A stretch of DNA of 64,000 nucleotides from Bacteroidales bacterium (GCA_045640185.1 JAZUEN010000053.1:6289-70288), one strand, 5' to 3'. Positions 31,426 to 46,344 are shown, numbered from the stretch's first letter. The notes: generated by a model not told the origin, from the sequence alone. Translations and numbers: made by a program.

Positions 31426-32772
31426 CTATATCACCAAAGCATTATCGCCCTTTATCAGCTTATACAAATCCATAGCATACAAGTCGGTCGTTCCGGATAT
31501 GAAGTCGAGCGTTGAACGGCACTTTCCGTAAACTGAATCGGTTTCGGTCTTGTACTGCTCTGGAATGAGCTGCAGAAGCTTGCGCGAATAATTCGACTTC
31601 GGGTCCATGGTTGCCTGCAGAAATTCCTCAACCAAGGTCTTCAGCACGTTGTAGCCCGTGATTTCGACCTTTACAACTGAACGGTTGTTGTATATCTTCT
31701 TTACCGACAAGTTGCTACTTTCAGCATACTCTGTCTCGATTTTTTCGGGCAGATTCTTGACAAGCGAGCCTGTGAAGGTGCCATTCATGATGGCCTCCTG
31801 ATTGTTCAGGAACACTTCGGAAGTGCGCGTCACCAGATGGTTTATGGACATGGCGCGCAAAAATGCGACAAGTTCGTTATTGTCAGTTACAACGCCCTTT
31901 ACGTCGTCGAGCTTCTTCCTGAAAATCTTTAGGTTCTCGCCATCGAAGAAGCTCGAAAGGCGCTCACGCGTCTCGTCAAACGACAGGATTCCGAGCCTGT
32001 GGGCATCCTCAATGTCCATAATCATATAAGCAATGTCGTCAGCGGCCTCCATCAGATAGGCGAGCGGGCTGCGGGCATAGATGCATTTTTCCTTGTCGAT
32101 GCACTCAAGCCCTGCCTCGGCCACTATTTTCTCGAACGCGTCCTTTTCGCTCTGGAAGAATCCGTATTTGCCCTTCTTGGTGCGCTCGGTTGACGGGAAC
32201 GGATATTTTATCATAGCCGCCAGGCATGCGTAAGTAAGCATCATGCCACCGGGCCTGCGCCCCTTGAACTGGTGTGTCAGCAGACGAATCAGGTTGGCAT
32301 TGCCCTCGAAATTTGTCAAGTCGAGCCATTCGGCCTCGGTCATCTCCGATTTCAGGCTACGCCCGTTGCCATTCTCGAAATAGTTGGATATGGCACTCTC
32401 GCCAGAGTGTCCGAAAGGCGGGTTTCCGAGGTCGTGGGCGAGCCCCGCCACCGACACAATGGTGCCCAGTTCGCCCATGAGCGGGCGCACCCTTTCATCG
32501 ACATTGGGCGAAATCCTGCTGGCCACAATGTTGCCAAGCGAACGGCTGATGCTTGCCACCTCAAGGCTGTGAGTAAGCCGGTTGTGCACAAAAACGCTTC
32601 CTGGCAGAGGAAACACCTGCGTCTTGTTTTGCAGGCGACGGAAAGGCGAGCTGAAAATCAGGCGGTCGTAGTCGCGCTGAAAGTTGGTACGTATGATTTC
32701 AATGTCGATGTCCTTGACATTTGGTTCCCTTCCGAACCGATTAGTTGACAATAACCTGCTCCAATCCATCAT
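31426..32772 (-). CDS. dgt: dGTP triphosphohydrolase-like HD-domain protein
   Basis: NRLTHSLEV and AHDLGNPPFGHSGE HD motifs. Start at the ATG overlapping the lspA stop (ATGA at 32772-32769). The longer ORF to 32916 overlaps lspA. Confidence 0.85.
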   Translation of the reverse strand: MMDWSRLLSTNRFGREPNVKDIDIEIIRTNFQRDYDRLIFSSPFRRLQNKTQVFPLPGSVFVHNRLTHSLEVASISRSLGNIVASRISPNVDERVRPLMGELGTIVSVAGLAHDLGNPPFGHSGESAISNYFENGNGRSLKSEMTEAEWLDLTNFEGNANLIRLLTHQFKGRRPGGMMLTYACLAAMIKYPFPSTERTKKGKYGFFQSEKDAFEKIVAEAGLECIDKEKCIYARSPLAYLMEAADDIAYMIMDIEDAHRLGILSFDETRERLSSFFDGENLKIFRKKLDDVKGVVTDNNELVAFLRAMSINHLVTRTSEVFLNNQEAIMNGTFTGSLVKNLPEKIETEYAESSNLSVKKIYNNRSVVKVEITGYNVLKTLVEEFLQATMDPKSNYSRKLLQLIPEQYKTETDSVYGKCRSTLDFISGTTDLYAMDLYKLIKGDNALVI

Positions 32773-33392
32773 TTCTCGAGTTCTTTTTGAAGTGTCTTGC
32801 GTTCGAACAGCAACATCCATATCACGCCACAGGTTATGGCAGAATCGGCGATGTTGAATATTGGACGGAAGAATATGAATTCCTCGCCCGGATGAAATGG
32901 CGACCACGCTGGCCAATGCGCCTCAATAAGAGGAAAATAGAGCATATCGACCACCCGGCCTTGCAGAAATCCTGAATATCCTGTGCCGAATGGGACAAAT
33001 GACGCCAAATTATTCCAGCTGTCGTTGAATATCAGCCCATAAAAGGCGCAATCGAATATGTTGCCGGCGGCTCCCGCCATAATCATTGTCACACAGATGA
33101 AATAGCCCATCGGGACAGCATTTGCAGCACGTCGTGAAAGACGATGCAAGTAGTAGATGATAAGGCCGACCATTGCCAGCCTGAAAATGCTCAGCAGATA
33201 TTTGCCAACCTGTCCGAACAGCTCTATTCCAAAAGCCATTCCGTTGTTTTCGGTGAAATGGATTATGAACCAATTGCCGAAGATGTGTATCTCCTCGCCA
33301 ATCATCATGTGGGTCTTGATCCATATTTTCAGTGCCTGGTCGGCGGCAAGAATCAAGACGGCCAATAGGATTGCCAGTTTACCTTTGCTCAT
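32769..33392 (-). CDS. lspA: lipoprotein signal peptidase II
   Basis: ADQALKIWI, NNGMAFG and VVDMLYFP...FNIADS motifs. Four TM segments. Confidence 0.9.
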   Translation of the reverse strand: MSKGKLAILLAVLILAADQALKIWIKTHMMIGEEIHIFGNWFIIHFTENNGMAFGIELFGQVGKYLLSIFRLAMVGLIIYYLHRLSRRAANAVPMGYFICVTMIMAGAAGNIFDCAFYGLIFNDSWNNLASFVPFGTGYSGFLQGRVVDMLYFPLIEAHWPAWSPFHPGEEFIFFRPIFNIADSAITCGVIWMLLFERKTLQKELEK

Positions 33393-33575
33393 TTATATTG
33401 ACTTGTGGGGCCAAAATCCCCGATTAAAAATCAAATGAAACTTAAGAATGTCTTGCTGGTCCAGAAATCGCGCAAAGCAATTTATGGAATTTGCAAGTGT
33501 ATTCAAAAAACAGCCACAAGAGCCATTGCTATGCGCAAGAGCCATTGTGGCTGTAAAAATATGCTTTTTATCCAA

Positions 33576-33965
33576 CTATTTCTTGCTTGCGTTTTTTGCC
33601 TCGACGCTCAATGTTGCATGAGGCACAGCGCGAAGGCGCTCTTTGGGAATGAGCTGACCTGTCTCACGGCAAATGCCATAGGTCTTATTCTCAATGCGTA
33701 CCAAAGCCGCTTTAAGGTGTTGAATAAACTTCTCCTGATGCTGCGCAAGACGACCTGTCTCTTCACGTGAAAGAACGCTTGCTCCTTCTTCCAAAACCTT
33801 GAAGGTTGGTGATGTATCAAGAGTGTCGTTGCCATCAGTGTGTGCGAGAGTTTTGCATAGCACTTCGTATTCTTCTTGGGCTTGTGCCAACTTTTCAAGA
33901 ATAATCTGCTTAAACTCTGCTAATTCTTCGTCAGAATATCTGACTTTTGGTTGTTCATCGCTCAT
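33576..33965 (-). CDS. DksA/TraR-family C4 zinc-finger protein
   Basis: Start at Met21 (MSDEQPK...). Coiled-coil region followed by C-terminal CRETGQLIPKERLRAVPHATL. Confidence 0.75.
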   Translation of the reverse strand: MSDEQPKVRYSDEELAEFKQIILEKLAQAQEEYEVLCKTLAHTDGNDTLDTSPTFKVLEEGASVLSREETGRLAQHQEKFIQHLKAALVRIENKTYGICRETGQLIPKERLRAVPHATLSVEAKNASKK

Positions 33966-34059
33966 AGTGGTATGAATTAGGTGGGCTAAAAGTAGAATTT
34001 TTGGTATGGTGTGGCTATAGCGCAACGCGTTTTTTACAACATAATTATTAACAACGGTT

Positions 34060-34380
34060 CAACAAATGCCTTGTGGCATTTGGCTATTTGCCTTTGGCAG
34101 TTAGCCACTTTTGCCTTGTGCCTTATGCCTTTTCATCTAATTTCAATTTCCCGTAGGGAAACCCCATTGGTAGAAAATGCCCATTATGCGTTTAACGGCA
34201 TTCCGTAGGAATGCGCCAATGTCGCAATGGCTCCATTCCGATGGAATGGAAATGGCTGTGATAATGCGTGTTTTCTACCGAGCGTTAATGCCTAACGGCA
34301 TTCTGTTGGAAATTGGCCTTTTGCCGTTGGCTTATGCCTTATCCCTTTTACTTTTGCCTTTCCCCTTATGCCTTTAATTT
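34060..34380. repeat. mosaic of small palindromes and T/G-rich word repeats (REP-like intergenic element)
   Basis: Hairpins AATGCCttgtGGCATT (34065-34080), CATTCCgtaGGAATG (34199-34213) and CCATTCCgatGGAATGG (34234-34250). Imperfect inverted repeat at 34169-34187 / 34261-34279. TTGCCTT / TTATGCCTT words flank both sides. Confidence 0.7.
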
Positions 34381-34491
34381 GATTGAATATGACCAATTGA
34401 AAAAAACGCAAGGGCGACGCTATGGAACGCCACCCCTGCAAGTAACTACGTAATAACCAAACGTGTTTTCTCTTATTCACCCTGTGCCATA

Positions 34492-35151
34492 TCAAAATAT
34501 ATTAATGCTTTTTGCTGAATGTGGCTTGCTGAAAAATATATCGTTGTCCATCGTAATAACCTCATTCGTGCTGTCGTTTCTGACTGTCAAGACATAATGC
34601 GCATTTCTTTTATAGTCAACCTCGAACGTATGCGATCCTTTATCGCCGATTACAGAATCGATTGGTGTTTGCAGATTGTTTTTGTTGTACAAGAACGCTG
34701 TGCTTCTGCTAGTTTCCTTTATAGTACAGGATATTCGGCACTGTCTTTTGCCAAGCATTCCTGAAGTATCGGTACTTGGACGGTATAAATCAATATAATC
34801 TATATAGCTATATGTGTCGTTATCGCCGTTGTACTCTTCCTTCGAAACCTTTTTATTGATAGTGCAAAAAGCCATTTCCATTTCTCTTAATTTTAACTCT
34901 GCCGAGAAATGATATTTGCCCGACGATGGTGCAACATCTGCCGAATCAAGTAACTGATTGCTGTCGATATTGAACAAATATACCTTGCTGATTTTTTCCC
35001 GTTTATTGTTGCCAATTGTTCCTGTGTAGTCAAACACAGCAGTGCTGTCGGTTAAAGGCGTGCAAGTAGGAGAAAATACGCCTGTGTTATTGTCTGTTTC
35101 GCAAGCCGAGAGCAAGCCGACAACTGCAAATGCCAATATTAAGTGTTTCAT
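34492..35151 (-). CDS. orphan lipoprotein
   Basis: Lipobox LLSAC. 219 aa with no recognisable domain. Last gene of the ABC/GntR operon. Confidence 0.6.
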   Translation of the reverse strand: MKHLILAFAVVGLLSACETDNNTGVFSPTCTPLTDSTAVFDYTGTIGNNKREKISKVYLFNIDSNQLLDSADVAPSSGKYHFSAELKLREMEMAFCTINKKVSKEEYNGDNDTYSYIDYIDLYRPSTDTSGMLGKRQCRISCTIKETSRSTAFLYNKNNLQTPIDSVIGDKGSHTFEVDYKRNAHYVLTVRNDSTNEVITMDNDIFFSKPHSAKSINIF

Positions 35152-35219
35152 TGTTTTGTCGTTTTTGGTTAAGGAGAATTTCTGTTAATTCTCCGATTTA
35201 AATATTTTATGAATATGGG

Positions 35220-37205
35220 TTAATCTCCATAGTAAATACGGACTTTGGTAGTGCTGTCCTTTATGTAGATGTCGTCGGACAACTTTACAAGTTCTCCCTT
35301 TCTGCTGTCTGTTTCGTAATAGACTGAGTAGTGTTTCTGCGGTTTCACTTTTTCGTAGAAAAAGGCGCGATTAATATTATTTCTTTTTACAGTGTCAATG
35401 CAGACAGTTCTATCTTCATTATCAAAAAGATAGTACCAGCCATTAAACTTATCCCCGTTGAGTGTAATACTTACCACTATAATTGGCAATGTTAGGTTGT
35501 CTTCCATAAAATCACCGTACTTTGTTAAATTACAAAAAGTACTCCAGGCCAAGTTGTCGGTTAGCAATCCATATTGCCAAATGTCGTCTGCGGTCAATGA
35601 CTTTCTTTTAAACACTTTCTCAAAATATGGCTTTAAAGGCTTGCACTCGTTGTTCCATTGTTCCAAAACCGACTTGTACTCCGCGTTGGCAATGTTGGCG
35701 TGTACAAATTCGTAATATTGCTTGAACTCGTTCAGCGAACCAGCCGTCGTATTGTTGTATGGATTTGAATAATTCTTAAATTTCATCAGTCGTATATATT
35801 CACAACTAGTGTAGTGCATACTGTTTTTTGTACTGTCGGTGTAGAATAGGCAACGGCCTTGATTCGGGTTTAACGATACAACAGACGACGTTAATGCCAT
35901 ATCTGCAAAATTCCTGCTCAATCCCAGTTCTTTGGCCAATTCGTAATGGTTTTCATAAATCTCAGTGCGGGAAATAAATTTTTCATAACTGATACTATTA
36001 TTATTCCAAACACGTATTCCCAATAAATTGCACAACGAGTCAAAACTGTAGTCTGCCCTACGGCGAAGCATAACATTCTTTGCATAATCGAATGCCATTT
36101 TCGACTGCATAATGTCGTTGTCGGCCAGCGATGTGTTCTTGATAACCGAGTCGGCATACTCGCAAAGGCAAATAAATGTGTTTGCACGCGAGTATTCAAA
36201 AACGTTTTGGACATAGCGCCTATACTTCTCCGATACGGGCACATTCAGGCTGTCGAAGGCGTTTTTAATGTTTTTGGCCACGGCTTCATACGCCTCTTTT
36301 TCGCGCTTGACAAATGTGTTGTAATTCAATTTATTATTGGCATAATCGTCGCTGTATTCAATATTGATTGGGCTCCTCTTAATGTAATCCAGATTGAACG
36401 GGGTGTCACAGATATGGTCTTTTGGGTGTTCTTTCAGAATCAGCGCCATATAGTTTGCGCACAGGTTGTTGTCGGTGCCCATTGCAACATCACAGAGCCA
36501 GCCATTTTTCATTACCAATATCGTATCGCCTTGTCCTACAGTTAAATGCAGATTATTCTCGAAGTCTGAAGCAAACGGGCTGATGTAAAATTCGGCCATA
36601 TTGACCACAGGAATTTTAGCCTCATACAGGCGTCCGTAATGGTCGTCGCTTTCCACGTAGGTCATTTTTGTGCTCCAGTCGCCGAGTCGGTTGTTGTAGC
36701 AGACAAAAAGGTTTCCGTAATAGCCATTGCTACTGCCGTCGATACGGCTTGTCAGATAGCGGGACTTGCTCATATCGTTGCGCACGTATGTCCGTATAAC
36801 GGCATATCCTACTGTTGTTTGCTCCATGTTGTAGGTTGATGTGTCGCGGTCGGCAACGTTTTTAGCCTTGTTGCGCATCAGCACATCCATCTTCCAACAC
36901 AGTTTCTTGGTTTTCCCGTTCTCGGTCACCGCCAGTGTGGAGTCGTTGTCGAAAGCGACATTCAGGCTAACCTGTTCGGTGTCGCAGGTCAAAGTCAGAT
37001 TCAGGCCGTCGGCGGTGGGCTCAACCGATTGGTAATCCCATCGGTTGTTTTTGTAGATGGCCGACTCCTCGAACAGGCCGTAGGTCCAATGTCCGTTATC
37101 CTGATTGAACCAACAGCCAATGTATTGCTCAGGTATATGGCTCTTGTAGGGGTTGCACGATGCAAGCAATCCCATTAAGGCTGAAATGTATAGTATTCTT
37201 TTCAT
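35220..37205 (-). CDS. orphan large lipoprotein (661 aa)
   Basis: Lipobox LLASC. Asn/Tyr/Cys-rich with no recognisable domain. Its start overlaps the stop of the upstream mini-ORF. Confidence 0.6.
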   Translation of the reverse strand: MKRILYISALMGLLASCNPYKSHIPEQYIGCWFNQDNGHWTYGLFEESAIYKNNRWDYQSVEPTADGLNLTLTCDTEQVSLNVAFDNDSTLAVTENGKTKKLCWKMDVLMRNKAKNVADRDTSTYNMEQTTVGYAVIRTYVRNDMSKSRYLTSRIDGSSNGYYGNLFVCYNNRLGDWSTKMTYVESDDHYGRLYEAKIPVVNMAEFYISPFASDFENNLHLTVGQGDTILVMKNGWLCDVAMGTDNNLCANYMALILKEHPKDHICDTPFNLDYIKRSPINIEYSDDYANNKLNYNTFVKREKEAYEAVAKNIKNAFDSLNVPVSEKYRRYVQNVFEYSRANTFICLCEYADSVIKNTSLADNDIMQSKMAFDYAKNVMLRRRADYSFDSLCNLLGIRVWNNNSISYEKFISRTEIYENHYELAKELGLSRNFADMALTSSVVSLNPNQGRCLFYTDSTKNSMHYTSCEYIRLMKFKNYSNPYNNTTAGSLNEFKQYYEFVHANIANAEYKSVLEQWNNECKPLKPYFEKVFKRKSLTADDIWQYGLLTDNLAWSTFCNLTKYGDFMEDNLTLPIIVVSITLNGDKFNGWYYLFDNEDRTVCIDTVKRNNINRAFFYEKVKPQKHYSVYYETDSRKGELVKLSDDIYIKDSTTKVRIYYGD

Positions 37206-37384
37206 ATCTTATTGACTTTTTGTTGTTTGTGTTTATTGCGATAGATATTGGCAATCTCGTCAATGCTGATTTCAAGTTTGTCAATCTCGCCAAAGAATCG
37301 GGCAAGCAAATCGCACTTGAGTGTCTGTCTGTCCTTTGGACGACTTGTGGTGGCGACTTTCGCCCCGTCAACTATGCCTTTCAT
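37202..37384 (-). CDS. truncated paralog of the C-terminal ~50 aa of the adjacent GntR/YtrA regulator (no wHTH)
   Basis: VDGAK...LARFFGEIDKLEISIDEIANIYRNKHKQ aligns with AEGAK...LPEFFNELDMLEISIDEVVKIYKERKKQ of the 37381..37743 product. The DNA is also similar. It has 4-nt stop/start overlaps on both sides. Confidence 0.45.
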   Translation of the reverse strand: MKGIVDGAKVATTSRPKDRQTLKCDLLARFFGEIDKLEISIDEIANIYRNKHKQQKVNKI

Positions 37385-37743
37385 TGCTTTTTCCTTTCCT
37401 TATAGATTTTCACCACCTCGTCAATAGAAATTTCAAGCATATCGAGTTCGTTGAAGAATTCGGGCAACGACTCGTTCATAAAGGCCTCGCGCCGTACGGC
37501 CTTGATCTGCTCCTTTGCGCCTTCTGCCACAAAGTAGCCAATGCCTCGGCGGTTGAAAATGATGTTGTTGCTTTGCAGGAAGTCGAATGAGCGCACCACA
37601 GTGTTGGCATTCACCTCCACGTTTGATGCATACTCGCGCACCGACGGCACACGCTCGCCCTCGGGGTATATTCCTGTCAGAATCTCGTTGCAGATGCGGT
37701 CAACTATCTGCATATATATCGGTCTGCTTTCCTTAAAATCCAT
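37381..37743 (-). CDS. GntR-family transcriptional regulator, YtrA subfamily
   Basis: PIYMQIVDRI...GERVPSVREYASNVEVNANTVVRSFDFLQSNNIIFNRRGIGYFV winged HTH. Short 120-aa length is typical of YtrA. Confidence 0.85.
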   Translation of the reverse strand: MDFKESRPIYMQIVDRICNEILTGIYPEGERVPSVREYASNVEVNANTVVRSFDFLQSNNIIFNRRGIGYFVAEGAKEQIKAVRREAFMNESLPEFFNELDMLEISIDEVVKIYKERKKQ

Positions 37744-37751
37744 AACTACTG

Positions 37752-38447
37752 TTATTTACACTGTTTTACATTGCTTTTGCAGAAACTTCTGTAGGCAAGA
37801 GCCATCAATAAAGCGCTGACAATGATGCCCGCCAGAAGTTCAACCACAGAAAGGGCAAAATCGGTCTTAATAATGATATAATGATGACAGTTTTCATATA
37901 GAAGCACCAGACCAAAAGTGATTATGGCTGTCCAAATAATTGAAAATGACTTGATAAGCACACTGTTGAGCGCTCCAATGGCCAGGCATATCGCAATCAG
38001 GGCGTATGCGTGGAAATATGTGCAACAGTAGTCGGCAAAATCGAACCTGCCTCCCAAGGAACATACTTCAACAACCGCAAGCCCCACAACCGCTATCAGG
38101 AACGGGAAAACCACATAGGTAAGCAACCGTGCGGTGAATTTTTCGCAAGCGGTGGCGGGCATTGTCATAAACGATATGCAGGAGCGCTTTCGGCTTGTGT
38201 TGACTAAAGTCCGTGTCGATAGAAACCAGGTCAGGCATACGGAACCCATCTCGCATATTGTTTCATATGAGAAATAGTCGCGGGCAAACGCGCTTACGGT
38301 CCCCTCGTAAAACGCGTAGTAGGCAAAAGTAATCAGTGCCCATACTGCGTACAGACAGCCTAATACCATTATCCAATATTTGGCAGGCTCCCACTCGTGG
38401 CGGAAAACTTGCGCAAATCGGGTTTTATTAATTGTTTCGTTTTTCAT
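37752..38447 (-). CDS. multi-pass membrane protein (putative permease component, paralog B)
   Basis: Start at Met28 (MKNETINKTRFAQVFRHEWEPAKYW). About 6 hydrophobic segments. The N-terminal motif is shared with the upstream gene. Confidence 0.6.
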   Translation of the reverse strand: MKNETINKTRFAQVFRHEWEPAKYWIMVLGCLYAVWALITFAYYAFYEGTVSAFARDYFSYETICEMGSVCLTWFLSTRTLVNTSRKRSCISFMTMPATACEKFTARLLTYVVFPFLIAVVGLAVVEVCSLGGRFDFADYCCTYFHAYALIAICLAIGALNSVLIKSFSIIWTAIITFGLVLLYENCHHYIIIKTDFALSVVELLAGIIVSALLMALAYRSFCKSNVKQCK

Positions 38448-38460
38448 AATAATTCTCCTT

Positions 38461-39198
38461 TCATTTTTTCCTCGACGATATGCCGTAAATGCTCTTGCGT
38501 TTGAACAGCACCCACGAAACAGGAACAAACACGATGAAAAATGCCATCACAATTGCCAGCGACAAGACAAGCGCGTGGCTGTGGACAGGATTCGCAACAT
38601 TGTAATACTCAATGAACGGCACCGTGAACATCAGGTTGATGTGCTCTATTATGTGAGCGAATAGTATAACCAGCACGCCTGTCATCAATACCGCAAACAG
38701 AATTTTCAGGCGGTTGAACAGCGCGCCCGCAAACAGCGCCACAAGCGATATGCCTATCACAAGCGCAGTTGTCAGCATATTTCCGCACAACAGCATCTCC
38801 TTTTGCAAAAGCGCAGTCTCCTCGTTTAACTGTATGAAGTGTCGCATCGGTTCGAACACAATGAACACCAATGCGGGTAAAACCCAAAACAGCAACATTC
38901 TGCAACAGAACTTCTCGATATTTGACGCGGGCACTACCGTAAAGGGCAGAAACGCCCGTTTGTCGGTAGTATGAGCCGATACAAAAAGTGGCATTATGAA
39001 AAGCATCACGGCAGGCCAGAATATTATTGTCGTTGTTCCCAGGTCATCGGTTTTCACAAACAGCGCCACAAGCCAGGCCATTATCATCATTGCAGTGTAG
39101 GCGGTGAGCCACACCCACGAATTTGCCCATTCGTGGCGCAAGAGCAACCCGAATCGGCGTAAGTTGAATTGGTTGTTCATAGCCAAGTCCTCCATCAT
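38461..39198 (-). CDS. multi-pass membrane protein (putative permease component, paralog A)
   Basis: N-terminal motif NLRRFGLLLRHEWANSWVW. About 6 hydrophobic segments. Its start overlaps the ABC ATPase stop. Confidence 0.6.
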   Translation of the reverse strand: MMEDLAMNNQFNLRRFGLLLRHEWANSWVWLTAYTAMMIMAWLVALFVKTDDLGTTTIIFWPAVMLFIMPLFVSAHTTDKRAFLPFTVVPASNIEKFCCRMLLFWVLPALVFIVFEPMRHFIQLNEETALLQKEMLLCGNMLTTALVIGISLVALFAGALFNRLKILFAVLMTGVLVILFAHIIEHINLMFTVPFIEYYNVANPVHSHALVLSLAIVMAFFIVFVPVSWVLFKRKSIYGISSRKK

Positions 39199-40031
39199 TT
39201 ACTGAAAACCGACTGAATTTTCTCCGTCTCGGCCAAGACGGCGTTAAACAGCATTTCAATGTTGAGCGGAGTCTCGCTGTCGTCGGCCATTTTTGGGCGG
39301 ACAATGCAGTCGCCAACGCCAAATGGTAGGCTGAAAATGGTGTTTTCGGGGTGGTTGCCTACGGCGCACTCGCCAAAAACCAGATGTTGCACTATTTCCG
39401 ACACCGAATGGTTGAACAGCAACTTGCCGTCGCCAATGATGGTGATCTCGTCGATAAGGTTCTCGACGTCGCGCACCTGATGAGTTGAGATGATGACCGT
39501 CCGTTCATCGTTCATACAGCCCGACACCACCTTGCGGAATTGGCTCTTTGACGGAATATCTAGGCCGTTGGTTGGCTCGTCCATAATCAGCAACTGTGTG
39601 TTGGTTGCCAAAGCAAAGCATACAAAAGCCTTTTTCTTCTGTCCCATTGATAGCGCCTTCAGATTCATATTGCGGTTCATATTGAAGCCTGCCAGGCAAT
39701 GGTCAAGCGTCTCGTTGCTGAATTTCGGGTAGAACGGAGCATTCAACTTTATGTACTTGTCGAAAGGCATATTAGGCAAATCGAACTCTTCTGGCACAAT
39801 GAAAAGGTCGGCCAGCGCATTCGGGTTGCGCTTTTGCATATCGTAGCCATTGAACATCACTTCGCCTTTTTGCGCGAACAGAAGTCCGCTCATAAGATAT
39901 AGCAATGTCGATTTGCCAGCCCCGTTGAGTCCGAGCAAACCGTAAATTTTTCCTTCGCTGAACGACAGATTCAGGTCGCTGAACACCTTGTGTCCTTTAT
40001 AACCAAATTCTAAGTTGCCAATTGTAATCAT
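39195..40031 (-). CDS. ABC transporter ATP-binding protein
   Basis: Walker A GLNGAGKST, signature LSMGQKKK, Walker B LLIMDEPTNGLD. Confidence 0.85.
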   Translation of the reverse strand: MITIGNLEFGYKGHKVFSDLNLSFSEGKIYGLLGLNGAGKSTLLYLMSGLLFAQKGEVMFNGYDMQKRNPNALADLFIVPEEFDLPNMPFDKYIKLNAPFYPKFSNETLDHCLAGFNMNRNMNLKALSMGQKKKAFVCFALATNTQLLIMDEPTNGLDIPSKSQFRKVVSGCMNDERTVIISTHQVRDVENLIDEITIIGDGKLLFNHSVSEIVQHLVFGECAVGNHPENTIFSLPFGVGDCIVRPKMADDSETPLNIEMLFNAVLAETEKIQSVFSK

Positions 40032-40248
40032 TTTATATTTTCGTTTATTAGTGTGTTAGATGATTAGTACACTGCAAATGTAGCAATCATTTTCAATCTG
40101 CAATCATTTTCTTGAAAAATTTTGTTTGAAAATAAGGCAGTTGGCACGTGATAGTATTTTTAGTCATTGAAAATCAATGTGTTGTGCAACTGTTTTTTTG
40201 GTACGATTTAATTGCCTGAGTTGTAACATTCTATTTAATTCACAGTCA

Positions 40249-40264
40249 TATCTTTGTATCTTTG
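40249..40264 (+). promoter_or_regulatory. tandem duplicated -7 boxes (TATCTTTG x2)
   Basis: Two adjacent matches to TAnnTTTG at 40249-40256 and 40257-40264, just upstream of the 44-nt leader element and the acyltransferase ATG (40310). Confidence 0.4.
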
Positions 40265-40268
40265 TATA

Positions 40269-40312
40269 AAGGTGTGTTCTATAAATACACCGTTTAAAAA
40301 ATGCGATAAATG
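40269..40312 (+). repeat. 44-nt leader element (copy 2), ending in the acyltransferase start codon
   Basis: Matches 10447-10490 at 41 of 44 positions. Confidence 0.7.
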
Positions 40313-41329
40313 AACAAACGGCTTTACTATTTAGACAATCTGAAGGTCTTTCTTACGGCATTAGTAGTGTTCCACCACGCAAACATTCCATTTTCGCACG
40401 CGGGCGATTGGGGATACTCACCGAGCAATCCTGCAGAGTTTATTCCGAACCTTTGGCATTTCAATTCAATAAACGCCACATTCTTTATGGGATTGTTTTT
40501 CTTTATCTCGGGCTTTTTTGTTCCAGGAAGTTACGACCGTCAAGGCGGAAAAACATTCTGCTTGAAAAAACTCTTGCGGTTGGGCATTCCGTTGCTGTTG
40601 GTAACAATGATTGTCAGTTCGGCTGACCATTGCTTGTCGTTCGCTCACGTTTGGTTTGTTGAGAGTTTGCTCATTTTCAGTCTTTTATATGCATTAGTAA
40701 GACAATTTGCAAAGCCAATTGACAGCAAAAACGCCAAATCGCGACTTACAATATTGGCGATTGTAGCGTTTGCCACCGTTTTGGGATTGTTGCAATTGCT
40801 CATACGCGGTGTCAGCAATCAGGACAACTGGATAATGTTTTTGGGCTTCATAAGAATGGAACCCGCCCACTATTTGCAATATGCATCGCTGTTTGTGCTG
40901 GGGATTTTAGCATACCGACTTGGCTGGCTGGAAAAACTGAAAAACAGCATCGGAATAGGTGCCGTTATTGTCTCAATACTGTTTTGCATTGGCGACTTGC
41001 TTCGTGGCGAAAATGCTTGGGGCGGTTTTGTATGGCATTGGTTCGGGATGTACGAGGCGTTTATGTGCGTGTCTATCTGCATTGCGCTGATTTGGATTTT
41101 CCGCGAATTTGGAAATTGGTCGGGCAGTTTTTGGAAATGGTGTTCCGCTCAAACGTACGGCGCATATATATTTCACCTATTTGTTTTGTTGTCAATAGAA
41201 TACGCTATGGACAGCGTTGCAATGCCTGTCTTTTTGAAATTCATTCTCGAAGGCTCTTTGGCTACAGTTTTTTCATTTGCAATAACGTGGCTATTCCGAC
41301 TTATACCAGGCGTGAAGAAAGTGCTGTAA
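40310..41329 (+). CDS. acyltransferase family 3 membrane protein
   Basis: YYLDNLKVFLTALVVFHHA N-terminal motif. About 10 TM segments. Length 339 aa. Confidence 0.8.
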   Translation: MNKRLYYLDNLKVFLTALVVFHHANIPFSHAGDWGYSPSNPAEFIPNLWHFNSINATFFMGLFFFISGFFVPGSYDRQGGKTFCLKKLLRLGIPLLLVTMIVSSADHCLSFAHVWFVESLLIFSLLYALVRQFAKPIDSKNAKSRLTILAIVAFATVLGLLQLLIRGVSNQDNWIMFLGFIRMEPAHYLQYASLFVLGILAYRLGWLEKLKNSIGIGAVIVSILFCIGDLLRGENAWGGFVWHWFGMYEAFMCVSICIALIWIFREFGNWSGSFWKWCSAQTYGAYIFHLFVLLSIEYAMDSVAMPVFLKFILEGSLATVFSFAITWLFRLIPGVKKVL

Positions 41330-41483
41330 CGTGGAGCGATGAAAAATTAATGAATGACGAAATGACGATTCGGTCACCGCGTCCCTACAACGTAAAACAA
41401 ATCCGTGCCATTTGTGTCATCTGCACGAAATCCCTATACAACTAATAAATAGATATGCATAAATTGTAACCACCTTATGGGTT

Positions 41484-42548
41484 TCATCTTTCGGCATTGT
41501 TTTTGCACTGCAATTCAAAAAATAATTTTTGAGCTTCGATTTCTTTTTTCAATTCTTCTTCGGTAGGCAAATAAAGCTTGTATTTCGAGGCAAATAACTG
41601 TTCGTTTTCGTGTAGAACCGAATATTTGGCAATTGCCTCGTCAGTATCGGAACACAAGAGAATGCCTAATGTAGGATTATCGTCTTTTGCGCGTTTAAGC
41701 TCGTCATACATACGTATATACATATCCATTTGTCCGACATCCTGATGTGTGATTTTCTTTGTCTTCAGGTCCACAAGTACAAAACACTTTAAAATGTAAT
41801 TGTAGAATACAAGGTCAATGTAATAGTCTTCTTTTTCAGTGTGTATGTGTTGCTGACGTGCCACAAAAGCATATCCTTTCCCAAGTTCCATCAAAAATTT
41901 CTGAATGTTCGATATGATGCTTGATTCTATATCAGTTTCAGAGAATGAAGATTCTTGTGAAAAGCCAAGAAATTCAGCAACAACAGGATTTTTTATGAAT
42001 TCCAGTTTGTTGTTTTGAAAATTAGCGGTCAGAGTTTTCATTTCAGCTTCCACGGGCTCTTTATTTTGGCTTGAAAGAAGTCTGTAATAATATTGTGAAC
42101 TGACGTTTCTTTGCAATGTGCGTACCGACCAAGTTTGGTCAAAAGCTTCTTTTTCGTACCAAGCACGCGCCTTTTCGTCATATACTTGAAGCAAAACAAG
42201 ATAATGCGTCCACGTTAGAAGTGTTTCAGATTTTCCAATCACTGATTGGAAAATGTTCGGATATGTCTTATAGAATTGATAAAAATTATAAATGTTTGAT
42301 TTGGTGAATCCTCTGCCATAAATCTCGGTTAGTGTTTTAGAAACATTGCCCATAATTGAAGCACCATAGTCTGCGCGTTCCTTGCCTTTTAGCTCTTCTT
42401 CTGCAATGCGTTTGCCAATGAGCCAGTTACGTTGTATCAAAACAACATTGACAGTAGAATGAACAATTTTTTGGGCTTGGTCAATAATGGAACGCAAATC
42501 TGAAATCATATCCAGACTTTCTTTATACTCAACAACTTCCGTTTCCAT
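41484..42548 (-). CDS. PDDEXK nuclease-domain protein, YhcG/DUF1016 family
   Basis: N-terminal VNVVLIQRNWLIGKRI... and C-terminal YYIDLVFYNYILKCFVLVDLKTKK (PD-(D/E)xK-like) pattern. Confidence 0.7.
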   Translation of the reverse strand: METEVVEYKESLDMISDLRSIIDQAQKIVHSTVNVVLIQRNWLIGKRIAEEELKGKERADYGASIMGNVSKTLTEIYGRGFTKSNIYNFYQFYKTYPNIFQSVIGKSETLLTWTHYLVLLQVYDEKARAWYEKEAFDQTWSVRTLQRNVSSQYYYRLLSSQNKEPVEAEMKTLTANFQNNKLEFIKNPVVAEFLGFSQESSFSETDIESSIISNIQKFLMELGKGYAFVARQQHIHTEKEDYYIDLVFYNYILKCFVLVDLKTKKITHQDVGQMDMYIRMYDELKRAKDDNPTLGILLCSDTDEAIAKYSVLHENEQLFASKYKLYLPTEEELKKEIEAQKLFFELQCKNNAER

Positions 42549-42761
42549 ATTTCAGCATCAAATTAAGTATTAATAAATATAAAAATAGTGCAATCCATCG
42601 TACATAACAAGTACGATAGATTCAAAAGAACACTGATGACGCGGGTTTGAAGAATTATCGGGATTTATCCACAATACAAAAACAGGCTAGCAAAACCTTT
42701 TTTAAATGACGGATGCGGATACAGCGTCCCTTCAACAAAAACACAAGGCAAGACGAATAAA

Positions 42762-42792
42762 GGCTCCATTCCATACGGAATGCGCCAATGTC
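42762..42792 (+). repeat. REP-like unit sharing a 16-nt core with 34208-34223
   Basis: GGCTCCATTCCATACGGAATGCGCCAATGTC. The exact 16-mer GGAATGCGCCAATGTC and the 11-mer GGCTCCATTCC both occur at 34208-34239 in the same orientation. Confidence 0.75.
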
Positions 42793-42811
42793 CATACAAT
42801 CAATAAGGATT

Positions 42812-42843
42812 AAAAAAAGGCGAATACGTCTTGCGTATTCGCC
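42812..42843 (-). terminator. rho-independent terminator of ileS
   Basis: On the minus strand: GGCGAATACG-loop-CGTATTCGCC followed by T7. Confidence 0.8.
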
Positions 42844-42870
42844 TTTTGAATGATATCGGTTGTGTTGCTT

Positions 42871-45800
42871 TTACTTTACAAGTTCAACCTTTATATAAAG
42901 ATTAACGTCGTCGTCAATGTCAACAGTAATGGCATTGTCGGCGTTAAGGTTGCCCACAATATCGATGCTGTTGGCAAGTGTTTGTCCAGCAATGTATTGC
43001 TTGAATGCCACAATGGCATTGTCGGAATAGTCGTTTGCCGAAATCTGAATGTTAATCTTGTCGGTAACTTCAAATCCGCTATCCTTGCGGATGTTCTGTA
43101 TGCGGTTCACAAGTTCGCGGGCCACGCCCTCGTTCTTCAGTTCGTCGGTGATGGTTATGTCGAGAGCCACTGTCAGAGTGCCCTCGTTGGTAACCAGCCA
43201 GCCAGGAATGTCTTCCGAAACAATCTCGACATCGGAACGAACCAGTGTCAAGGGCTGACCGTCGGCAACAATGTCGAACTTCTCGTCTGATTCAAGTTGG
43301 GCGATGTCCTCTTGGCTCATTTGTGCTATGGCAGACGAAATCTGCTTCATTATCTTGCCGTATTTCGGACCAAGCACCTTGAAGTCGGGCTTGATGCGCT
43401 TAACCAATATGCCTGTCGTGTTTTCCAAAAGTTCGACTTCCTTCACGTTCACTTCGGTCATTATTATTGACTTGACGGCCTCAATTTGGCGACGCATCTT
43501 GTCGCTGTGGATAGGAACCATAATCTTGCTCAGTGGCTGACGGACCTTCAGGCTCACCTTTCGGCGCAAGCCAAGAACCATTGACGACACGCGCTGTGCC
43601 ATAGCCATACGTTCCTCAAGGTCGGTGTCGATTGCCGACTCGTCAAAAGCAGGGAAGTTTGTCAGGTGCACTGATGTGGCGCAACGTCCTGTAGCGGTGT
43701 TGAGGTCCTTGAACAGCATATCCATATAGAATGGCGCAATAGGACTGCCTAGGATGGACACTGTTTCAAGGCAGGTGTAAAGTGTTTGGTAAGCGGAAAT
43801 CTTGTCGTTGTCGTATTGTCCGCCCCAGAAGCGCTTGCGGTTGAGGCGCACGTACCAGTTGCTCAGGTTGTCGATTACGAAATCCTGAATGGCGCGTCCT
43901 GCGCGTGTAGGCTCATAGTTGTCGAGTGCGTCCTGAACTTCCTTGATGAGCGAGTTCAGCAACGACAGTATCCAGCGGTCGATTTCAGGACGCTCGGCCA
44001 GCGGAATATCCTTCTCCTTATATGTAAAGCCGTCGACATTGGCATACAATGCAAAGAAACTGTATGTATTATAGAGTGTTCCGAAGAATTTGCGCTTTAC
44101 TTCGTCAACACCTTCAATGTCGAATTTCAGGTTGTCCCAAGGCTGTGCGTTGGTTATCATATACCAGCGCAACGGGTCGGAACCGTATTTTTCGATTGTC
44201 TCGAACGGGTCAACGGCATTGCCCAGACGTTTTGACATCTTGCTTCCGTTCTTGTCAAGAACGAGTCCGTTGCTGATGATGTTCTTGAAGGCCACCTTGC
44301 CGTTTATCATTGTGCTGATGGCGTGCAGAGTGTAGAACCAGCCACGTGTTTGGTCGACGCCTTCGGCGATGAAGTCGGCAGGATATAGCGTGTTGAAGTC
44401 GTCCTTGTGCTCAAATGGCCAGTGGCGTTGTGCGAAAGGCATTGCGCCAGAGTCGAACCACACGTCGATAAGGTCCTTCTCGCGGTACATAGGCTGTCCG
44501 TTTGACGAGACAAGCACCACGCCGTCGATGTATGGGCGGTGAAGGTCAATCTTCTCGTAGTTGTCCTTTGAGTAGTCGCCCACCTTGAAGCCTTTGGCTG
44601 TGTAAGGATTTTCCTTCATTATTCCAGCCTTGATAGCCTTCTCTATCTCACTGCAAAGTTCCTCAACCGAGCCGATGCATAACTCTTCGGAGCCGTCTTC
44701 GGTGCGCCAGATAGGAAGCGGTGTGCCCCAATAGCGTGAACGGCTGAGGTTCCAGTCGTTGAGGTTCTCGAGCCACTTGCCGAATCGGCCTTCGCCAGTG
44801 CTTTGAGGCTTCCAGTTGATGGTCTTGTTAAGTTCGAACATTTGGTCCTTGACAGCCGATGCCTTGATGAACCAACTGTCGAGCGGGTAGTAGAGCACGG
44901 GCTTGTCGGTGCGCCAGCAATGCGGATAGTTGTGAACGTGCTTTTCAATCTTGAACACAGTGCCGTCGGCCTTCATCTTCATACAGATGAAGATGTCGAG
45001 GTTTTCGGCCTTCTGCGCCGACTGCTCGTCGTATTTTCCGTCGACGGTGAACTGCGGGTCGTAGGCGTTCTTAACCCAACGGCCTTCATATTCCTTATAG
45101 ATGTCGGTCTTTACAAAATCTTTAGCGAAACTGCTGTCGAGGTCCGATATGAAGTAGTATTTGCCTGTCATATCGACCATTGGACGGGTTTCGCCAGCCT
45201 TGTTGATCATAAACAGCGACGGTATGCCAGCCAACTTGGCCACTTTGGCGTCGTCGGCGCCGAAGGTAGGCGCAATGTGGACAATGCCCGTGCCGTCTTC
45301 GGTAGTTACATAGTCGCCAGGGATTACGCGGAAAGCATCAGCCTTCTTGTTGACAATCTTCTTATCGACCAATTCGCAAGGGTCAACCCAAGGGAAGAGT
45401 TGCTCGTAGTGGATGCCAACAAGGTCGGAGCCCTTCATTTCGGCGATGATGTTGCCAGGGTTCTTGTCGTTGAAGTAGGCGCTGAAACGTGCCTTTGCCA
45501 CAATGACGGTGCATTTCTGCTCGGTATACGGGTTCTGTGTCTCAACAGCGACATAGTCGATTTTCGGCCCTACGCACAATGCCGTGTTTGAAGGCAATGT
45601 CCAAGGAGTTGTTGTCCAGGCGATAATGTAGAGTTGCTTGTATTCATCGCCAGCCTTGCCAATGATGTCTTTTACAAGAGCGTTGTCGTTGTCGGTAACC
45701 TTGAACTGCGCGGTGCAGGTGGTATCCTTGACATCGCGGTAGCAACCAGGTTGGTTTAGTTCGTGCGACGAAAGTCCAGTGCCTGCGGCAGGCGAATAAG

Positions 45801-46344
45801 GCTGAATGGTGTAGCCCTTGTACAGCAATCCTTTCTTGTAGATTTCCTTCAGCAAGTACCACAACGACTCGATGTATCGGTTGTCGTAAGTGATGTAAGG
45901 GTCGTCCATATTGACCCAATATCCCATTTTGGCGGTAAGGTCGCGCCAAAGGTCGGTGTATTTCATCACCTCTGAACGGCAGGCGCGGTTGTAGTCGTCA
46001 ACGCTGATTTTCTTGCCGATGTCTTCCTTGGTGATTCCGAGTTGCTTTTCCACGCCAAGTTCGACAGGCAGTCCGTGAGTGTCCCAGCCAGCCTTGCGGT
46101 CCACCAGGAATCCTTGCAGAGTCTTGTAACGGCAAATAATATCCTTTATGCTACGTGCCATAACGTGGTGAATGCCAGGCTTGCCGTTGGCCGATGGTGG
46201 TCCTTCGAAGAAAATGAATTTTGGATGGCCTTCACGGGCATCGATGCTCTTTTGGAATGTGTTTTCCTTGTTCCATTCAGCAAGTACGTCCTTGTTGATT
46301 TGTGACAAGTCTAACTGCTTGTGTTCGGGGAATTTACCGCTCAT
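42871..46344 (-). CDS. ileS: isoleucine--tRNA ligase
   Basis: Class I motifs PPSANGKPGIHHV (HIGH) and KMSKRLGN (KMSKS). Length 1157 aa. Confidence 0.95.
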   Translation of the reverse strand: MSGKFPEHKQLDLSQINKDVLAEWNKENTFQKSIDAREGHPKFIFFEGPPSANGKPGIHHVMARSIKDIICRYKTLQGFLVDRKAGWDTHGLPVELGVEKQLGITKEDIGKKISVDDYNRACRSEVMKYTDLWRDLTAKMGYWVNMDDPYITYDNRYIESLWYLLKEIYKKGLLYKGYTIQPYSPAAGTGLSSHELNQPGCYRDVKDTTCTAQFKVTDNDNALVKDIIGKAGDEYKQLYIIAWTTTPWTLPSNTALCVGPKIDYVAVETQNPYTEQKCTVIVAKARFSAYFNDKNPGNIIAEMKGSDLVGIHYEQLFPWVDPCELVDKKIVNKKADAFRVIPGDYVTTEDGTGIVHIAPTFGADDAKVAKLAGIPSLFMINKAGETRPMVDMTGKYYFISDLDSSFAKDFVKTDIYKEYEGRWVKNAYDPQFTVDGKYDEQSAQKAENLDIFICMKMKADGTVFKIEKHVHNYPHCWRTDKPVLYYPLDSWFIKASAVKDQMFELNKTINWKPQSTGEGRFGKWLENLNDWNLSRSRYWGTPLPIWRTEDGSEELCIGSVEELCSEIEKAIKAGIMKENPYTAKGFKVGDYSKDNYEKIDLHRPYIDGVVLVSSNGQPMYREKDLIDVWFDSGAMPFAQRHWPFEHKDDFNTLYPADFIAEGVDQTRGWFYTLHAISTMINGKVAFKNIISNGLVLDKNGSKMSKRLGNAVDPFETIEKYGSDPLRWYMITNAQPWDNLKFDIEGVDEVKRKFFGTLYNTYSFFALYANVDGFTYKEKDIPLAERPEIDRWILSLLNSLIKEVQDALDNYEPTRAGRAIQDFVIDNLSNWYVRLNRKRFWGGQYDNDKISAYQTLYTCLETVSILGSPIAPFYMDMLFKDLNTATGRCATSVHLTNFPAFDESAIDTDLEERMAMAQRVSSMVLGLRRKVSLKVRQPLSKIMVPIHSDKMRRQIEAVKSIIMTEVNVKEVELLENTTGILVKRIKPDFKVLGPKYGKIMKQISSAIAQMSQEDIAQLESDEKFDIVADGQPLTLVRSDVEIVSEDIPGWLVTNEGTLTVALDITITDELKNEGVARELVNRIQNIRKDSGFEVTDKINIQISANDYSDNAIVAFKQYIAGQTLANSIDIVGNLNADNAITVDIDDDVNLYIKVELVK

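What the first reader, a model, noticed from the sequence alone, without database searches (positions are those of the whole stretch)
34026..42870. 8.8-kb accessory insertion splitting the ileS / dksA-lspA neighbourhood
ileS (42871-46344) ends in its own strong terminator. The dksA/traR-like gene, lspA and dgt lie at 31426-33965 on the same strand. ileS and lspA are co-operonic in E. coli, and I believe ileS-dksA-lspA is contiguous in many Bacteroidales. Here they are separated by about 8.8 kb of accessory genes: a 7-gene ABC/GntR/lipoprotein operon, an acyltransferase_3 gene and a YhcG PDDEXK gene. Both borders carry copies of the same REP-like unit with an exact 16-mer (GGAATGCGCCAATGTC at 34208-34223 and 42777-42792) in direct orientation. 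By eye the 34.5-37.2 kb part looks more AT-rich than the flanks. No integrase or transposase is present, so the insertion mechanism is unclear.
Basis: partly seen in the sequence, partly recalled or inferred. Interest (0 to 1): 0.6.

Follow-up and report, generated by a model that had tools for sequence, protein, structure and literature searches.

The report
Patchwork variable region between ileS and dksA
Two housekeeping genes that sit side by side in most related bacteria are separated here by 8.8 kb, but that DNA is a patchwork of relocated resident genes and small strain-variable cassettes, not one inserted mobile element, so it is an ordinary genome-plasticity hotspot.

Summary
ileS and dksA-lspA-dgt lie 8.8 kb apart on the same strand. 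The 16-mer occurs exactly twice in the window, and only twice in the whole 3-Mb genome. ileS and dksA are 12-217 bp apart in 20 of 22 assessable genomes from other genera of the order.

The single-insertion reading does not hold.
- The split is found in all 15 other species of the genus, which show at least five different neighbour sets.
- The ABC/GntR operon has normal composition. It is present in every strain contig recovered, and its ATPase and GntR group with an operon found in the other species sampled.
- The left 16-mer lies inside a 280-bp REP-like cluster (34055-34334). In at least six conspecific metagenome samples this cluster is replaced by a 1.9-kb nfeD-band7 pair. The cargo therefore exists without the repeat pair.
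- The 16-mer is largely the consensus of a small hairpin-repeat family, not an att site or target duplication.
- Only the AT-rich YhcG cassette (41347-42723, PADLOC candidate PDC-S02) shows real presence/absence.
- No empty site was found.

A 13.4-kb tract (34055 to about 47500) is a mosaic shared with the sister species, with a sharp step at 34054. Best reading: a recombination-driven flexible region at an old synteny break. Interest is low to moderate.

The parts
31426..33965 (-). Conserved dksA/traR - lspA - dgt unit: dksA 33576-33965, lspA 32769-33392, HD-domain dgt-like 31426-32772
   Evidence: Pfam hits. Gene calls on identical strain contigs. 99.8-100% identical in conspecific contigs but 71-82% in the sister species.
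33966..34054 (-). Conserved dksA upstream (promoter) region. Position 34054 is the universal left breakpoint.
   Evidence: Homology to every related lineage ends exactly at 34054: L070-L075 and L095-L099.
34055..34334 (.). 280-bp REP-like cluster of two head-to-head hairpin units plus GCCTT-rich words. It is specific to G000, G006 and L078, and contains the left 16-mer at 34208-34223.
   Evidence: Replaced by 1893 bp carrying nfeD + band7 in L070, L071, L072, L073, L074 and L075. Family copies elsewhere in the genome are shown.
34335..34491 (-). Spacer shared by all strains, holding the operon's intrinsic terminator (34407-34440, minus strand, 15-bp stem plus T7)
   Evidence: Alignment with strain contigs resumes at 34335.
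34492..40031 (-). Seven-gene operon: ABC ATPase 39195-40031, two membrane proteins 38461-39198 and 37752-38528, YtrA-type GntR 37381-37743, 60-aa ORF 37202-37384, 661-aa lipoprotein 35220-37205, DUF4369 lipoprotein 34492-35151
   Evidence: Pfam and NCBIfam. Lipoboxes and TM segments. Present in all strain contigs. GC and tetranucleotide composition normal. Homologous operons in the other species sampled.
40268..40306 (+). Recurrent roughly 40-nt motif (AAGGTGTGTTCTATAAATNCACCGTTTRAAA) just upstream of the acyltransferase start. In strain L089 an IS (DDE_Tnp_1) abuts it.
40310..41329 (+). Acyltransferase_3 membrane protein
   Evidence: PF01757, E 3.4e-29. 99% identical in G006. One homologue at 50-53% aa (two in G008) in 11 of the other 14 species.
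41347..42723 (-). YhcG cassette (gene 41484-42548). Strain-variable and AT-rich. Bounded by an imperfect direct repeat GCGTCCCTWCAAC... at 41379 and 42724.
   Evidence: Absent from G006, L078 and L082, which share the same 62-bp filler. PF06250 4e-53 and PF17761 6e-37. PADLOC PDC-S02 1e-132. GC 0.363, GC3 0.346. Cassette-only contigs L092 and L093 end at the same right-hand point (42752); L093 starts exactly at 41346 and L092 at 41318.
42754..42792 (.). Solo REP-like hairpin (GGCTCCATTCC-ATAC-GGAATGCGCC) carrying the right 16-mer at 42777-42792
   Evidence: Present in every YhcG+ and YhcG- contig that extends past this position. Closest copy (28 of 29) lies at C23:36020-36048, next to a YhcG paralogue.
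42815..42847 (-). ileS intrinsic terminator
   Evidence: Perfect 14-bp inverted repeat I17. T-run read from the sequence.
42871..46344 (-). ileS (1157 aa). It lies inside the mosaic tract.
   Evidence: Pfam. 93-99% identical both to conspecific strains and to the sister species.
46603..47087 (+). Small antitoxin-like ORF plus YafQ/RelE-like toxin. This is the right-hand part of the mosaic tract and is missing from G006.
   Evidence: ORFs. G006 homology stops at 46346 and resumes at 47176. The toxin family was read from the motif RECHIxPDWLLIY, not tested against a library.

Best explanation
The 8.8 kb between dksA and ileS is a composite flexible region that built up at an old break in the ancestral ileS-dksA-lspA gene string. 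It was not delivered by one mobile-element insertion.

Its backbone is a YtrA-type GntR/ABC exporter operon with two lipoproteins, plus an acyltransferase-3 gene. The backbone has normal composition, is fixed in this species and its sister species, and looks like resident genus DNA that was relocated here.

Several small modules vary between strains on top of this backbone:
- a YhcG PD-(D/E)XK nuclease cassette (a candidate defence gene);
- at the left edge, either the nfeD-band7 pair or a 280-bp cluster of REP-like hairpins;
- a toxin-antitoxin pair beyond ileS;
- in one strain, an IS element.

Alleles with different module content are most likely exchanged by homologous recombination in the conserved flanks, including across the boundary with the sister species. 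This would give a 13.4-kb mosaic tract (34055 to about 47500) with a sharp left edge at 34054.

The shared 16-mer reflects membership of both hairpins in one small repeat family. It is not an attachment site or a target-site duplication.

Shown: the gene content, the strain variants, the identity steps, the composition and the repeat family. Inferred: that recombination in the flanks is the exchange mechanism, that the G000 state is a loss of nfeD-band7, and that ileS-dksA proximity here is retained ancestry.
For: Ancestral adjacency and its loss in the genus:
- ileS and dksA are 12-217 bp apart in 20 of 22 assessable genomes of other genera.
- They are separated in all 15 other species of the genus. 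Sets of dksA-upstream and ileS-downstream neighbours differ between subclades.
- The ileS tree puts G000+G006 as sister to the rest of the genus.

Backbone:
- 35.5-40 kb has GC 0.446-0.473 and tetranucleotide distance at the 14th-42nd percentile.
- It is present in all strain contigs.
- The ATPase+GntR tree groups it with the main operon copy of the other species sampled. Those copies sit in at least four different contexts.

Left edge:
- Conspecific contigs are 99.7-99.9% identical up to 34054. They then carry 1893 bp with nfeD+band7 in place of 34055-34334, and resume at 34335.
- The 16-mer and REP motifs are absent from those contigs where they cover the left edge; the longer contigs still carry the right copy.
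- band7 is a single-copy gene at 79-80% aa identity in 12 of 15 genus species. It has no match in G000.

YhcG:
- Absent from G006, L078 and L082, which share an identical 62-bp filler.
- GC 0.363 and PADLOC PDC-S02 at 1e-132.

Mosaic tract:
- The conspecific strain is 99.8-100% identical outside the tract and 92-100% inside it.
- The sister species is 71-82% identical left of 34054 and 92-99.5% inside the tract.

16-mer:
- Other family copies carry TTGGCGCATTCC-TAC-GGAATGC and a CCAATG tail. There are 12 genome sites within two mismatches.

Other lineages put different cargo at the same junctions:
- an HpaII-type restriction-modification system plus Vsr after ileS;
- DUF6922 or ilvD before dksA;
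- one extra gene between ileS and dksA in a distant family.
Against: - The two border copies are the only exact copies of the 16-mer in the genome. They are therefore each other's closest relatives over that stretch, which a pure 'family consensus' account explains only in part.
- The permease and lipoprotein genes of the operon are only 24-35% identical to those of the other species, and the acyltransferase only 50-53%. Replacement by foreign versions is not excluded.
- Strain contigs were mostly retrieved through exact matches to cargo proteins, which biases against finding empty sites. Only the dksA look-up was neutral.
- The direction of the nfeD-band7 versus REP-cluster change rests on parsimony.
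- G006 is a fragmented MAG, although an independent contig (L078) reproduces its structure.
Confidence: 0.75

Rival explanations
1. One 8.6-kb island was inserted between dksA and ileS by recombination at the REP-like 16-mer, which was duplicated as flanking direct repeats.
For: The exact 16-mer occurs in direct orientation at both ends and nowhere else in the genome. There is no adjacency in this lineage, although adjacency is ancestral.
Against: - At least six conspecific samples carry the cargo without the left copy, which lies in a 280-bp strain-specific segment.
- The modules vary independently: YhcG, nfeD-band7, the TA pair and an IS.
- No empty site and no recombinase were found.
- The core composition is normal.
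- Most of the 16-mer is family consensus.
Confidence: 0.04
2. There was no insertion. ileS and dksA were separated by inversions or translocations in the ancestor of the genus, and their present proximity on the same strand in G000/G006 is secondary. The intervening genes are simply what local shuffling left there.
For: - The genus shows many local inversions around ilv, ileS and dksA. G003 and G014 have ileS and dksA 19-21 kb apart on opposite strands, G012 has ilvC next to ileS, and the P0013 lineage has ilvD next to dksA.
- G022 in the neighbouring genus is also split.
- The intervening genes (operon, band7) look like resident genus genes.
Against: - The order dgt-lspA-dksA-X-ileS and the shared strand exactly match the outgroup arrangement (G024). 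That is unlikely to be regained by chance.
- G000/G006 is the sister lineage to the rest of the genus, so retention plus in-place accretion needs fewer events.
Confidence: 0.17
3. The structure is an assembly or binning artefact of a metagenome-derived genome.
For: G000 has 92 contigs. G006 is a 570-contig MAG with 5% contamination.
Against: The same gene order is reproduced in independent assemblies from at least eight samples, including a 480-kb contig.
Confidence: 0.01

Closest known systems
Flexible genomic islets / recombination hotspots between conserved core genes (established concept; named from general knowledge, no paper read here)
   Same: Conserved flanks with alternative gene content among conspecific strains. 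No dedicated mobility genes. Raised nucleotide diversity in and beside the variable spot. Defence-type cargo (YhcG here, an HpaII-type R-M system in a related lineage).
   Different: The spot lies inside a formerly contiguous ileS-dksA-lspA string. Much of its content looks like relocated resident genes of the genus (ABC operon, nfeD-band7) rather than foreign DNA.
REP/BIME repeated extragenic palindromes of Enterobacteria and Pseudomonas
   Same: Short imperfect palindromic hairpins. They are intergenic, dispersed, sometimes clustered head to head, and found near gene ends.
   Different: Only about 10 hairpins per genome, against hundreds. The single Y1-transposase (RAYT-like) gene in the genome is flanked by a different repeat family, so no cognate transposase is identified.
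YtrA-subfamily GntR regulators with ABC transporters (B. subtilis ytrABCDEF; S. aureus PmtR/PmtABCD)
   Same: A 120-aa GntR with a winged helix and a short tail, directly next to an ABC ATPase and two membrane proteins. Best NCBIfam similarities are PmtR, PmtA and lantibiotic-protection ATPases, all below their cut-offs.
   Different: This is a Bacteroidales version with two downstream lipoproteins and a 60-aa ORF. No score reaches an equivalog threshold. The substrate is unknown.
YhcG / DUF1016 PD-(D/E)XK nucleases (PADLOC candidate PDC-S02)
   Same: Full-length match to both Pfam domains and to PDLC04807. A single-gene cassette that is strain-variable and AT-rich.
   Different: Defence activity is only a database candidate status. 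Nothing was tested here.

Membership tests
Integrative genomic island / integrative mobile element | Integrase, recombinase or transposase gene inside the element | tested here: not met
   Pfam scan of all ORFs of 80 aa or more in 34026-42870 found none. Only one other strain (L089) has an IS transposase there.
Integrative genomic island / integrative mobile element | Direct repeats that form the exact junctions (att or TSD) | tested here: not met
   The left 16-mer lies in the 280-bp segment 34055-34334, which cargo-bearing conspecific strains lack. Strain homology breaks at 34054/34335, 41346 and 42723, not at the 16-mers.
Integrative genomic island / integrative mobile element | Presence/absence as one unit, with an empty site in close relatives | tested here: not met
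   None of the contigs that reach the ileS 3' end or the dksA 5' end shows an empty site. The modules vary independently. Sampling is limited and partly biased towards cargo-bearing contigs.
Integrative genomic island / integrative mobile element | Composition deviating from the host genome | tested here: inconclusive
   Normal for 35.5-40 kb. Deviant only for 40-43 kb: GC 0.382 (3rd percentile) and tetranucleotide distance at the 97th percentile.
REP/BIME-type extragenic palindromes | Short imperfect palindromes, intergenic, in multiple dispersed copies | tested here: met
   ATTCC-N3-4-GGAAT hairpins with shared flanks occur at C11 (x3), C23, C51 (x2) and C53 (x4). There are 12 sites within two mismatches of the 16-mer. 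Related pieces occur in other species of the genus.
REP/BIME-type extragenic palindromes | Cognate RAYT (Y1 transposase) flanked by the same REPs | tested here: not met
   There is one Y1_Tnp gene, at C15:8888-9229. Its flanks carry another palindrome family and no CATTCC/GGAATG hairpins.
YtrA-type GntR / ABC transporter operon | Short GntR (about 120-130 aa) with an N-terminal winged HTH, adjacent to an ABC ATPase and permeases | tested here: met
   PF00392 covers residues 10-72 of a 120-aa protein. PF00005 ATPase. Two proteins with 5-7 TM segments. The PmtR, PmtA and galliderm_ABC similarities are below their cut-offs.
YtrA-type GntR / ABC transporter operon | Export or protection function, with autoregulation by the GntR | not testable with these tools
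   No expression or transport data are available.
YhcG/DUF1016 nuclease (PADLOC PDC-S02) | DUF1016_N plus YhcG_C PD-(D/E)XK domains across the full length | tested here: met
   PF17761 5.6e-37 and PF06250 4.3e-53. PDLC04807 1.2e-132 over residues 8-349.
YhcG/DUF1016 nuclease (PADLOC PDC-S02) | Anti-phage activity | not testable with these tools
   This is a candidate system only. The papers found merely list it.
Flexible genomic islet / recombination hotspot | Alternative contents between the same conserved flanks in conspecific strains | tested here: met
   nfeD-band7 versus the REP cluster, YhcG present or absent, an IS in L089, and the TA pair absent from G006.
Flexible genomic islet / recombination hotspot | Raised diversity or mosaicism in the tract relative to its flanks | tested here: met
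   99.8-100% identity outside the tract against 92-100% inside 34335-47500 among conspecifics. The sister species is 71-82% outside (left) and 92-99.5% inside.

The most novel reading that the evidence does not exclude
The ileS-dksA gap is a cross-species exchange tract. A 13.4-kb segment that includes the essential ileS gene circulates as mosaic alleles between two sister species. It has a fixed left crossover point at 34054. REP-like hairpin clusters act as the scars, or the agents, of cassette replacement, for example the swap of nfeD-band7 for a 280-bp hairpin cluster.
Probability: 0.25. Interest if true: 0.4.

Novelty: new member of a known kind. Interest (0 to 1): 0.25.

Why it matters
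The case shows how a gene string conserved across an order (ileS-dksA-lspA) can become a plasticity hotspot in one uncultured Bacteroidales genus. NCBI labels relatives of this genus 'Salinivirgaceae bacterium'.

It also gives a worked example of a false lead. A flanking exact repeat, with no integrase present, suggested a novel insertion mechanism, but strain-level comparison dissolves that into ordinary cassette turnover.

Three practical points follow for annotation:
- The YhcG cassette and the nfeD-band7/REP alternative are usable strain markers.
- ileS phylogenies for this species pair are affected by recombination.
- The operon is not foreign DNA.

None of this opens a new mechanistic question on its own.

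Tried and rejected
- A metagenome-contig scan with the 29-nt ileS 3' end found nothing. I did not use the second scan, because exact-protein look-ups in Logan/ENA assemblies already gave strain contigs.
- A genome-contig scan with the 661-aa lipoprotein found only G006. A 400-genome search across the order found only N-terminal similarity at 27-39%. No donor could be identified.
- I tested whether the REP-like family has a cognate RAYT. One Y1 transposase exists, but a different repeat family surrounds it.
- I looked for a defence role for nfeD-band7. PADLOC gave no hit.
- I considered that high G000-G006 identity in the cargo meant a private recent transfer of the island. Rejected as special, because 96-99% tracts also occur at three other places in the same window.
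- I considered the C23 locus, where pieces resembling the right and left borders lie side by side, as a paralogous 'unsplit' site. Rejected: the order is permuted, and the units are simply family members.
- Earlier scan notes were first-reader notes on the same window and added no tested evidence.
Full report
**1. The observation**

On the minus strand lie:
- a dgt-like HD hydrolase (31426-32772)
- lspA (32769-33392)
- a dksA/traR zinc-finger gene (33576-33965)
- a seven-gene operon (34492-40031)
- a YhcG nuclease gene (41484-42548)
- ileS (42871-46344)

An Acyl_transf_3 gene (40310-41329) lies on the plus strand.

The operon comprises an ABC ATPase, two membrane proteins, a 120-aa YtrA-type GntR, a 60-aa ORF, a 661-aa lipoprotein and a DUF4369 lipoprotein. 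Lipoboxes and TM segments are shown. Its intrinsic terminator is at 34407-34440. No integrase or transposase family matched any ORF of 80 aa or more in the gap.

The 16-mer GGAATGCGCCAATGTC is exact at 34208 and 42777. None of 100 shuffles gave two matches. These are its only exact copies in the 3.0-Mb genome. The ileS terminator is a perfect 14-bp inverted repeat followed by a T-run.

**2. Is the ileS-dksA adjacency ancestral?**

Yes. I searched 40 relatives with both proteins. ileS and dksA are 12-217 bp apart on the same strand in 20 of 22 assessable genomes from other genera of the order.
- One distant genome (G038) has a single 342-aa gene between them.
- G022, from a neighbouring genus, has them on different contigs.

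Within the window's own genus all 15 other species are split:
- The sister species G006 has the same layout as G000, with a 7.5-kb gap.
- G003 and G014 have the two genes 19-21 kb apart on opposite strands.
- Most of the others have them on different contigs; in G010 ileS was not found.

A map of the flanks shows at least five different neighbour sets upstream of dksA and at least four downstream of ileS. Extra lineages from metagenomes add more:
- an HpaII-type restriction-modification system plus Vsr after ileS;
- DUF6922 genes, or ilvD, before dksA.

An ileS tree places G000+G006 as sister to the rest of the genus. G000/G006 keep the outgroup order and strand (dgt-lspA-dksA-X-ileS, G024). 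I therefore read their proximity as retained ancestry, with DNA accumulated in between. This step is an inference.

**3. The gap is not one unit**

*Composition.* The 35.5-40 kb stretch is indistinguishable from the genome: GC 0.446-0.473 against a genome mean of 0.452, and tetranucleotide distance at the 14th-42nd percentile. The 34-37 kb stretch is mildly AT-rich (11th percentile). Only 40-43 kb is atypical (GC 0.382, 3rd percentile; tetranucleotide distance at the 97th percentile). YhcG is the extreme, with GC 0.363 and GC3 0.346.

*Relatives.* Only G006 carries the block at 96-97% DNA identity. However, all ten other species whose loci were examined have an operon of the same architecture.
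- Its ATPase is 66-69% and its GntR 72-83% identical to those of the cargo.
- In a concatenated tree the cargo copy groups with these copies. G000's own second copy (C32) is more distant.
- These operons sit in at least four different genomic contexts.
- The permease and lipoprotein genes are only 24-35% identical.
- The acyltransferase has one homologue at 50-53% (two in G008) in 11 of the other 14 species (99% in G006).

The backbone therefore looks like positionally unstable resident DNA. Replacement of parts of it by foreign versions is not excluded. The 661-aa lipoprotein has no close relative in 400 genomes of the order, nor in the species-representative collection apart from G006.

**4. 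Strain-level variants**

Exact-protein look-ups in public assemblies returned contigs of the same species from at least eight samples, including one 480-kb contig.

*Left edge.* Conspecific contigs are 99.7-99.9% identical to the window up to position 34054. They then carry 1893 bp encoding NfeD and a Band_7/SPFH protein in place of window 34055-34334, and resume at 34335.
- The left 16-mer and all REP-like motifs lie inside the 280 bp that these strains lack.
- Band_7 is a single-copy gene at 79-80% aa identity in 12 of 15 species of the genus.
- It has no match in G000.
- The G000 state is therefore most simply a loss, with a hairpin cluster in its place.
- G006 and an independent contig of that species (L078) share the loss allele.

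*YhcG.* Window 41347-42723 is missing from G006, L078 and L082. They carry an identical 62-bp filler there.
- Cassette-only contigs L092 and L093 end at the same right-hand point (42752), and L093 starts exactly at 41346. This is expected when both alleles co-occur in a sample.
- The cassette is bounded by an imperfect direct repeat (GCGTCCCTWCAAC...) that belongs to another small motif family.
- YhcG matches PADLOC candidate PDC-S02 at 1e-132. Its defence activity is untested.

*Other variants.*
- One strain (L089) has a DDE transposase next to the acyltransferase.
- G006 lacks the small toxin-antitoxin pair upstream of ileS.

*Empty site.* No contig shows ileS next to dksA. Only the dksA look-up was unbiased with respect to cargo.

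**5. The repeat**

The 16-mer is the 3' arm and tail of a hairpin. Other copies (C11 x3, C51 x2, C23) share TTGGCGCATTCC-TAC-GGAATGC, a CCAATG tail and, further on, TTTTCTACC and TTTCCC-TAC-GGGAAA.
- The left intergenic region holds two such units head to head.
- The right one is a solo hairpin whose closest relative (28 of 29) lies beside a second YhcG paralogue on C23.
- The family is small: about 10 hairpins, and 12 sites within two mismatches of the 16-mer.

Two copies near one 8.6-kb stretch is therefore a real association with this plastic region. But the copies are not junctions. The right copy is present in every YhcG+ and YhcG- contig that extends past it, and the left copy only in the nfeD-band7-minus allele. 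The genome's single Y1 transposase is surrounded by a different repeat family.

**6. A mosaic tract**

Windowed identities show two contrasting patterns.

| Comparison | Left of 34054 | Inside 34335 to about 47500 | Right of about 47500 |
|---|---|---|---|
| Conspecific strain | 99.8-100% | 92-100% | 99.2-100% (one 94% bin at the 50.5-kb repeat spacer) |
| Sister species | 71-82% | 92-99.5% (measured to 46346) | not compared in the same way |

Inside this 13.4-kb tract, which includes ileS, alleles are shared across the species pair. The left edge coincides with the point where homology to every other lineage ends. Similar 96-99% tracts between the two species occur at three other places in the window. 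This reflects frequent recombination, not a special property of the block.

**7. Verdict**

The interpretation as a single 8.8-kb accessory insertion bounded by a repeated 16-mer is not supported.

The best explanation is a flexible region at an old synteny break. It was built from relocated resident genes plus small strain-variable cassettes, and it is reshuffled by homologous recombination in the conserved flanks.

The main rival holds that local inversions produced the layout and nothing was inserted. It cannot be excluded without more complete genomes of this lineage.

This is a new instance of a well-known kind of genome plasticity, so interest is low to moderate.

Noticed in passing
window 40268-40306; also window about 10447-10490 (C53:16735-16778) and G000 contigs C4:572, C7:1073, C74:6655, C66:108: A roughly 40-nt motif (AAGGTGTGTTCTATAAATNCACCGTTTRAAA, with a GGTG...CACC stem) lies 4-25 nt upstream of ATG starts at six or more places in the genome, and also in G006. 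Several of the downstream genes begin MGYMN. It could be a shared leader or promoter element. In strain contig L089 an IS transposase abuts it.
   Followed up: partly
G000 C15:8737-9513 (outside the window) and L051:1-778: The only Y1_Tnp (RAYT-like) gene of the genome is 96.7% identical in DNA to G003, while its neighbouring genes are 70-76% identical. It is flanked by its own palindromic repeats (for example GCGCTTTCAGCGCG and GGCGCCAYAGGAAAA).
   Followed up: partly
L070 (reverse complement) about 12150-12370, beside nfeD in conspecific strains: The spacer is made of simple tandem words ((AGGATTT)n, (CGGGAT)n, (GTCCCGAT)n). It resembles the repeat-rich spacer at window 50573-50824, which is also the one low-identity bin (94%) between strains on the right flank.
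   Followed up: no
window 46347-47285: A small ORF plus a YafQ/RelE-like toxin (motif RECHIVPDWLLIY) upstream of ileS is present in G000 and in the conspecific contig L077/L087 (one collinear alignment), but missing from sister species G006. There, about 230 bp replace about 830 bp.
   Followed up: partly
G000 C23:36020-38950 (outside the window): A second YhcG paralogue (334 aa, 36157-37161) has a REP-like hairpin 28 of 29 identical to the right-border unit just downstream. A 363-aa ORF further on was not analysed.
   Followed up: no
L104-L106:13870-16972: In another lineage of the genus (ileS at least 90% identical), the position downstream of ileS holds a C5 DNA methylase, an HpaII-type restriction enzyme and Vsr. 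Defence genes therefore recur at the ileS 3' flank.
   Followed up: partly
L100:1024-2052 (G038, another family of the order): A single 342-aa gene, not run against any family library, sits between ileS and dksA. This is an independent small interruption of the same junction.
   Followed up: no
window 24112-27271 and 58985-64000: Other tracts of 96-99% DNA identity to sister species G006 stand against a 70-90% background. This suggests widespread recombination between the two species, or mixed strain content in that MAG.
   Followed up: no
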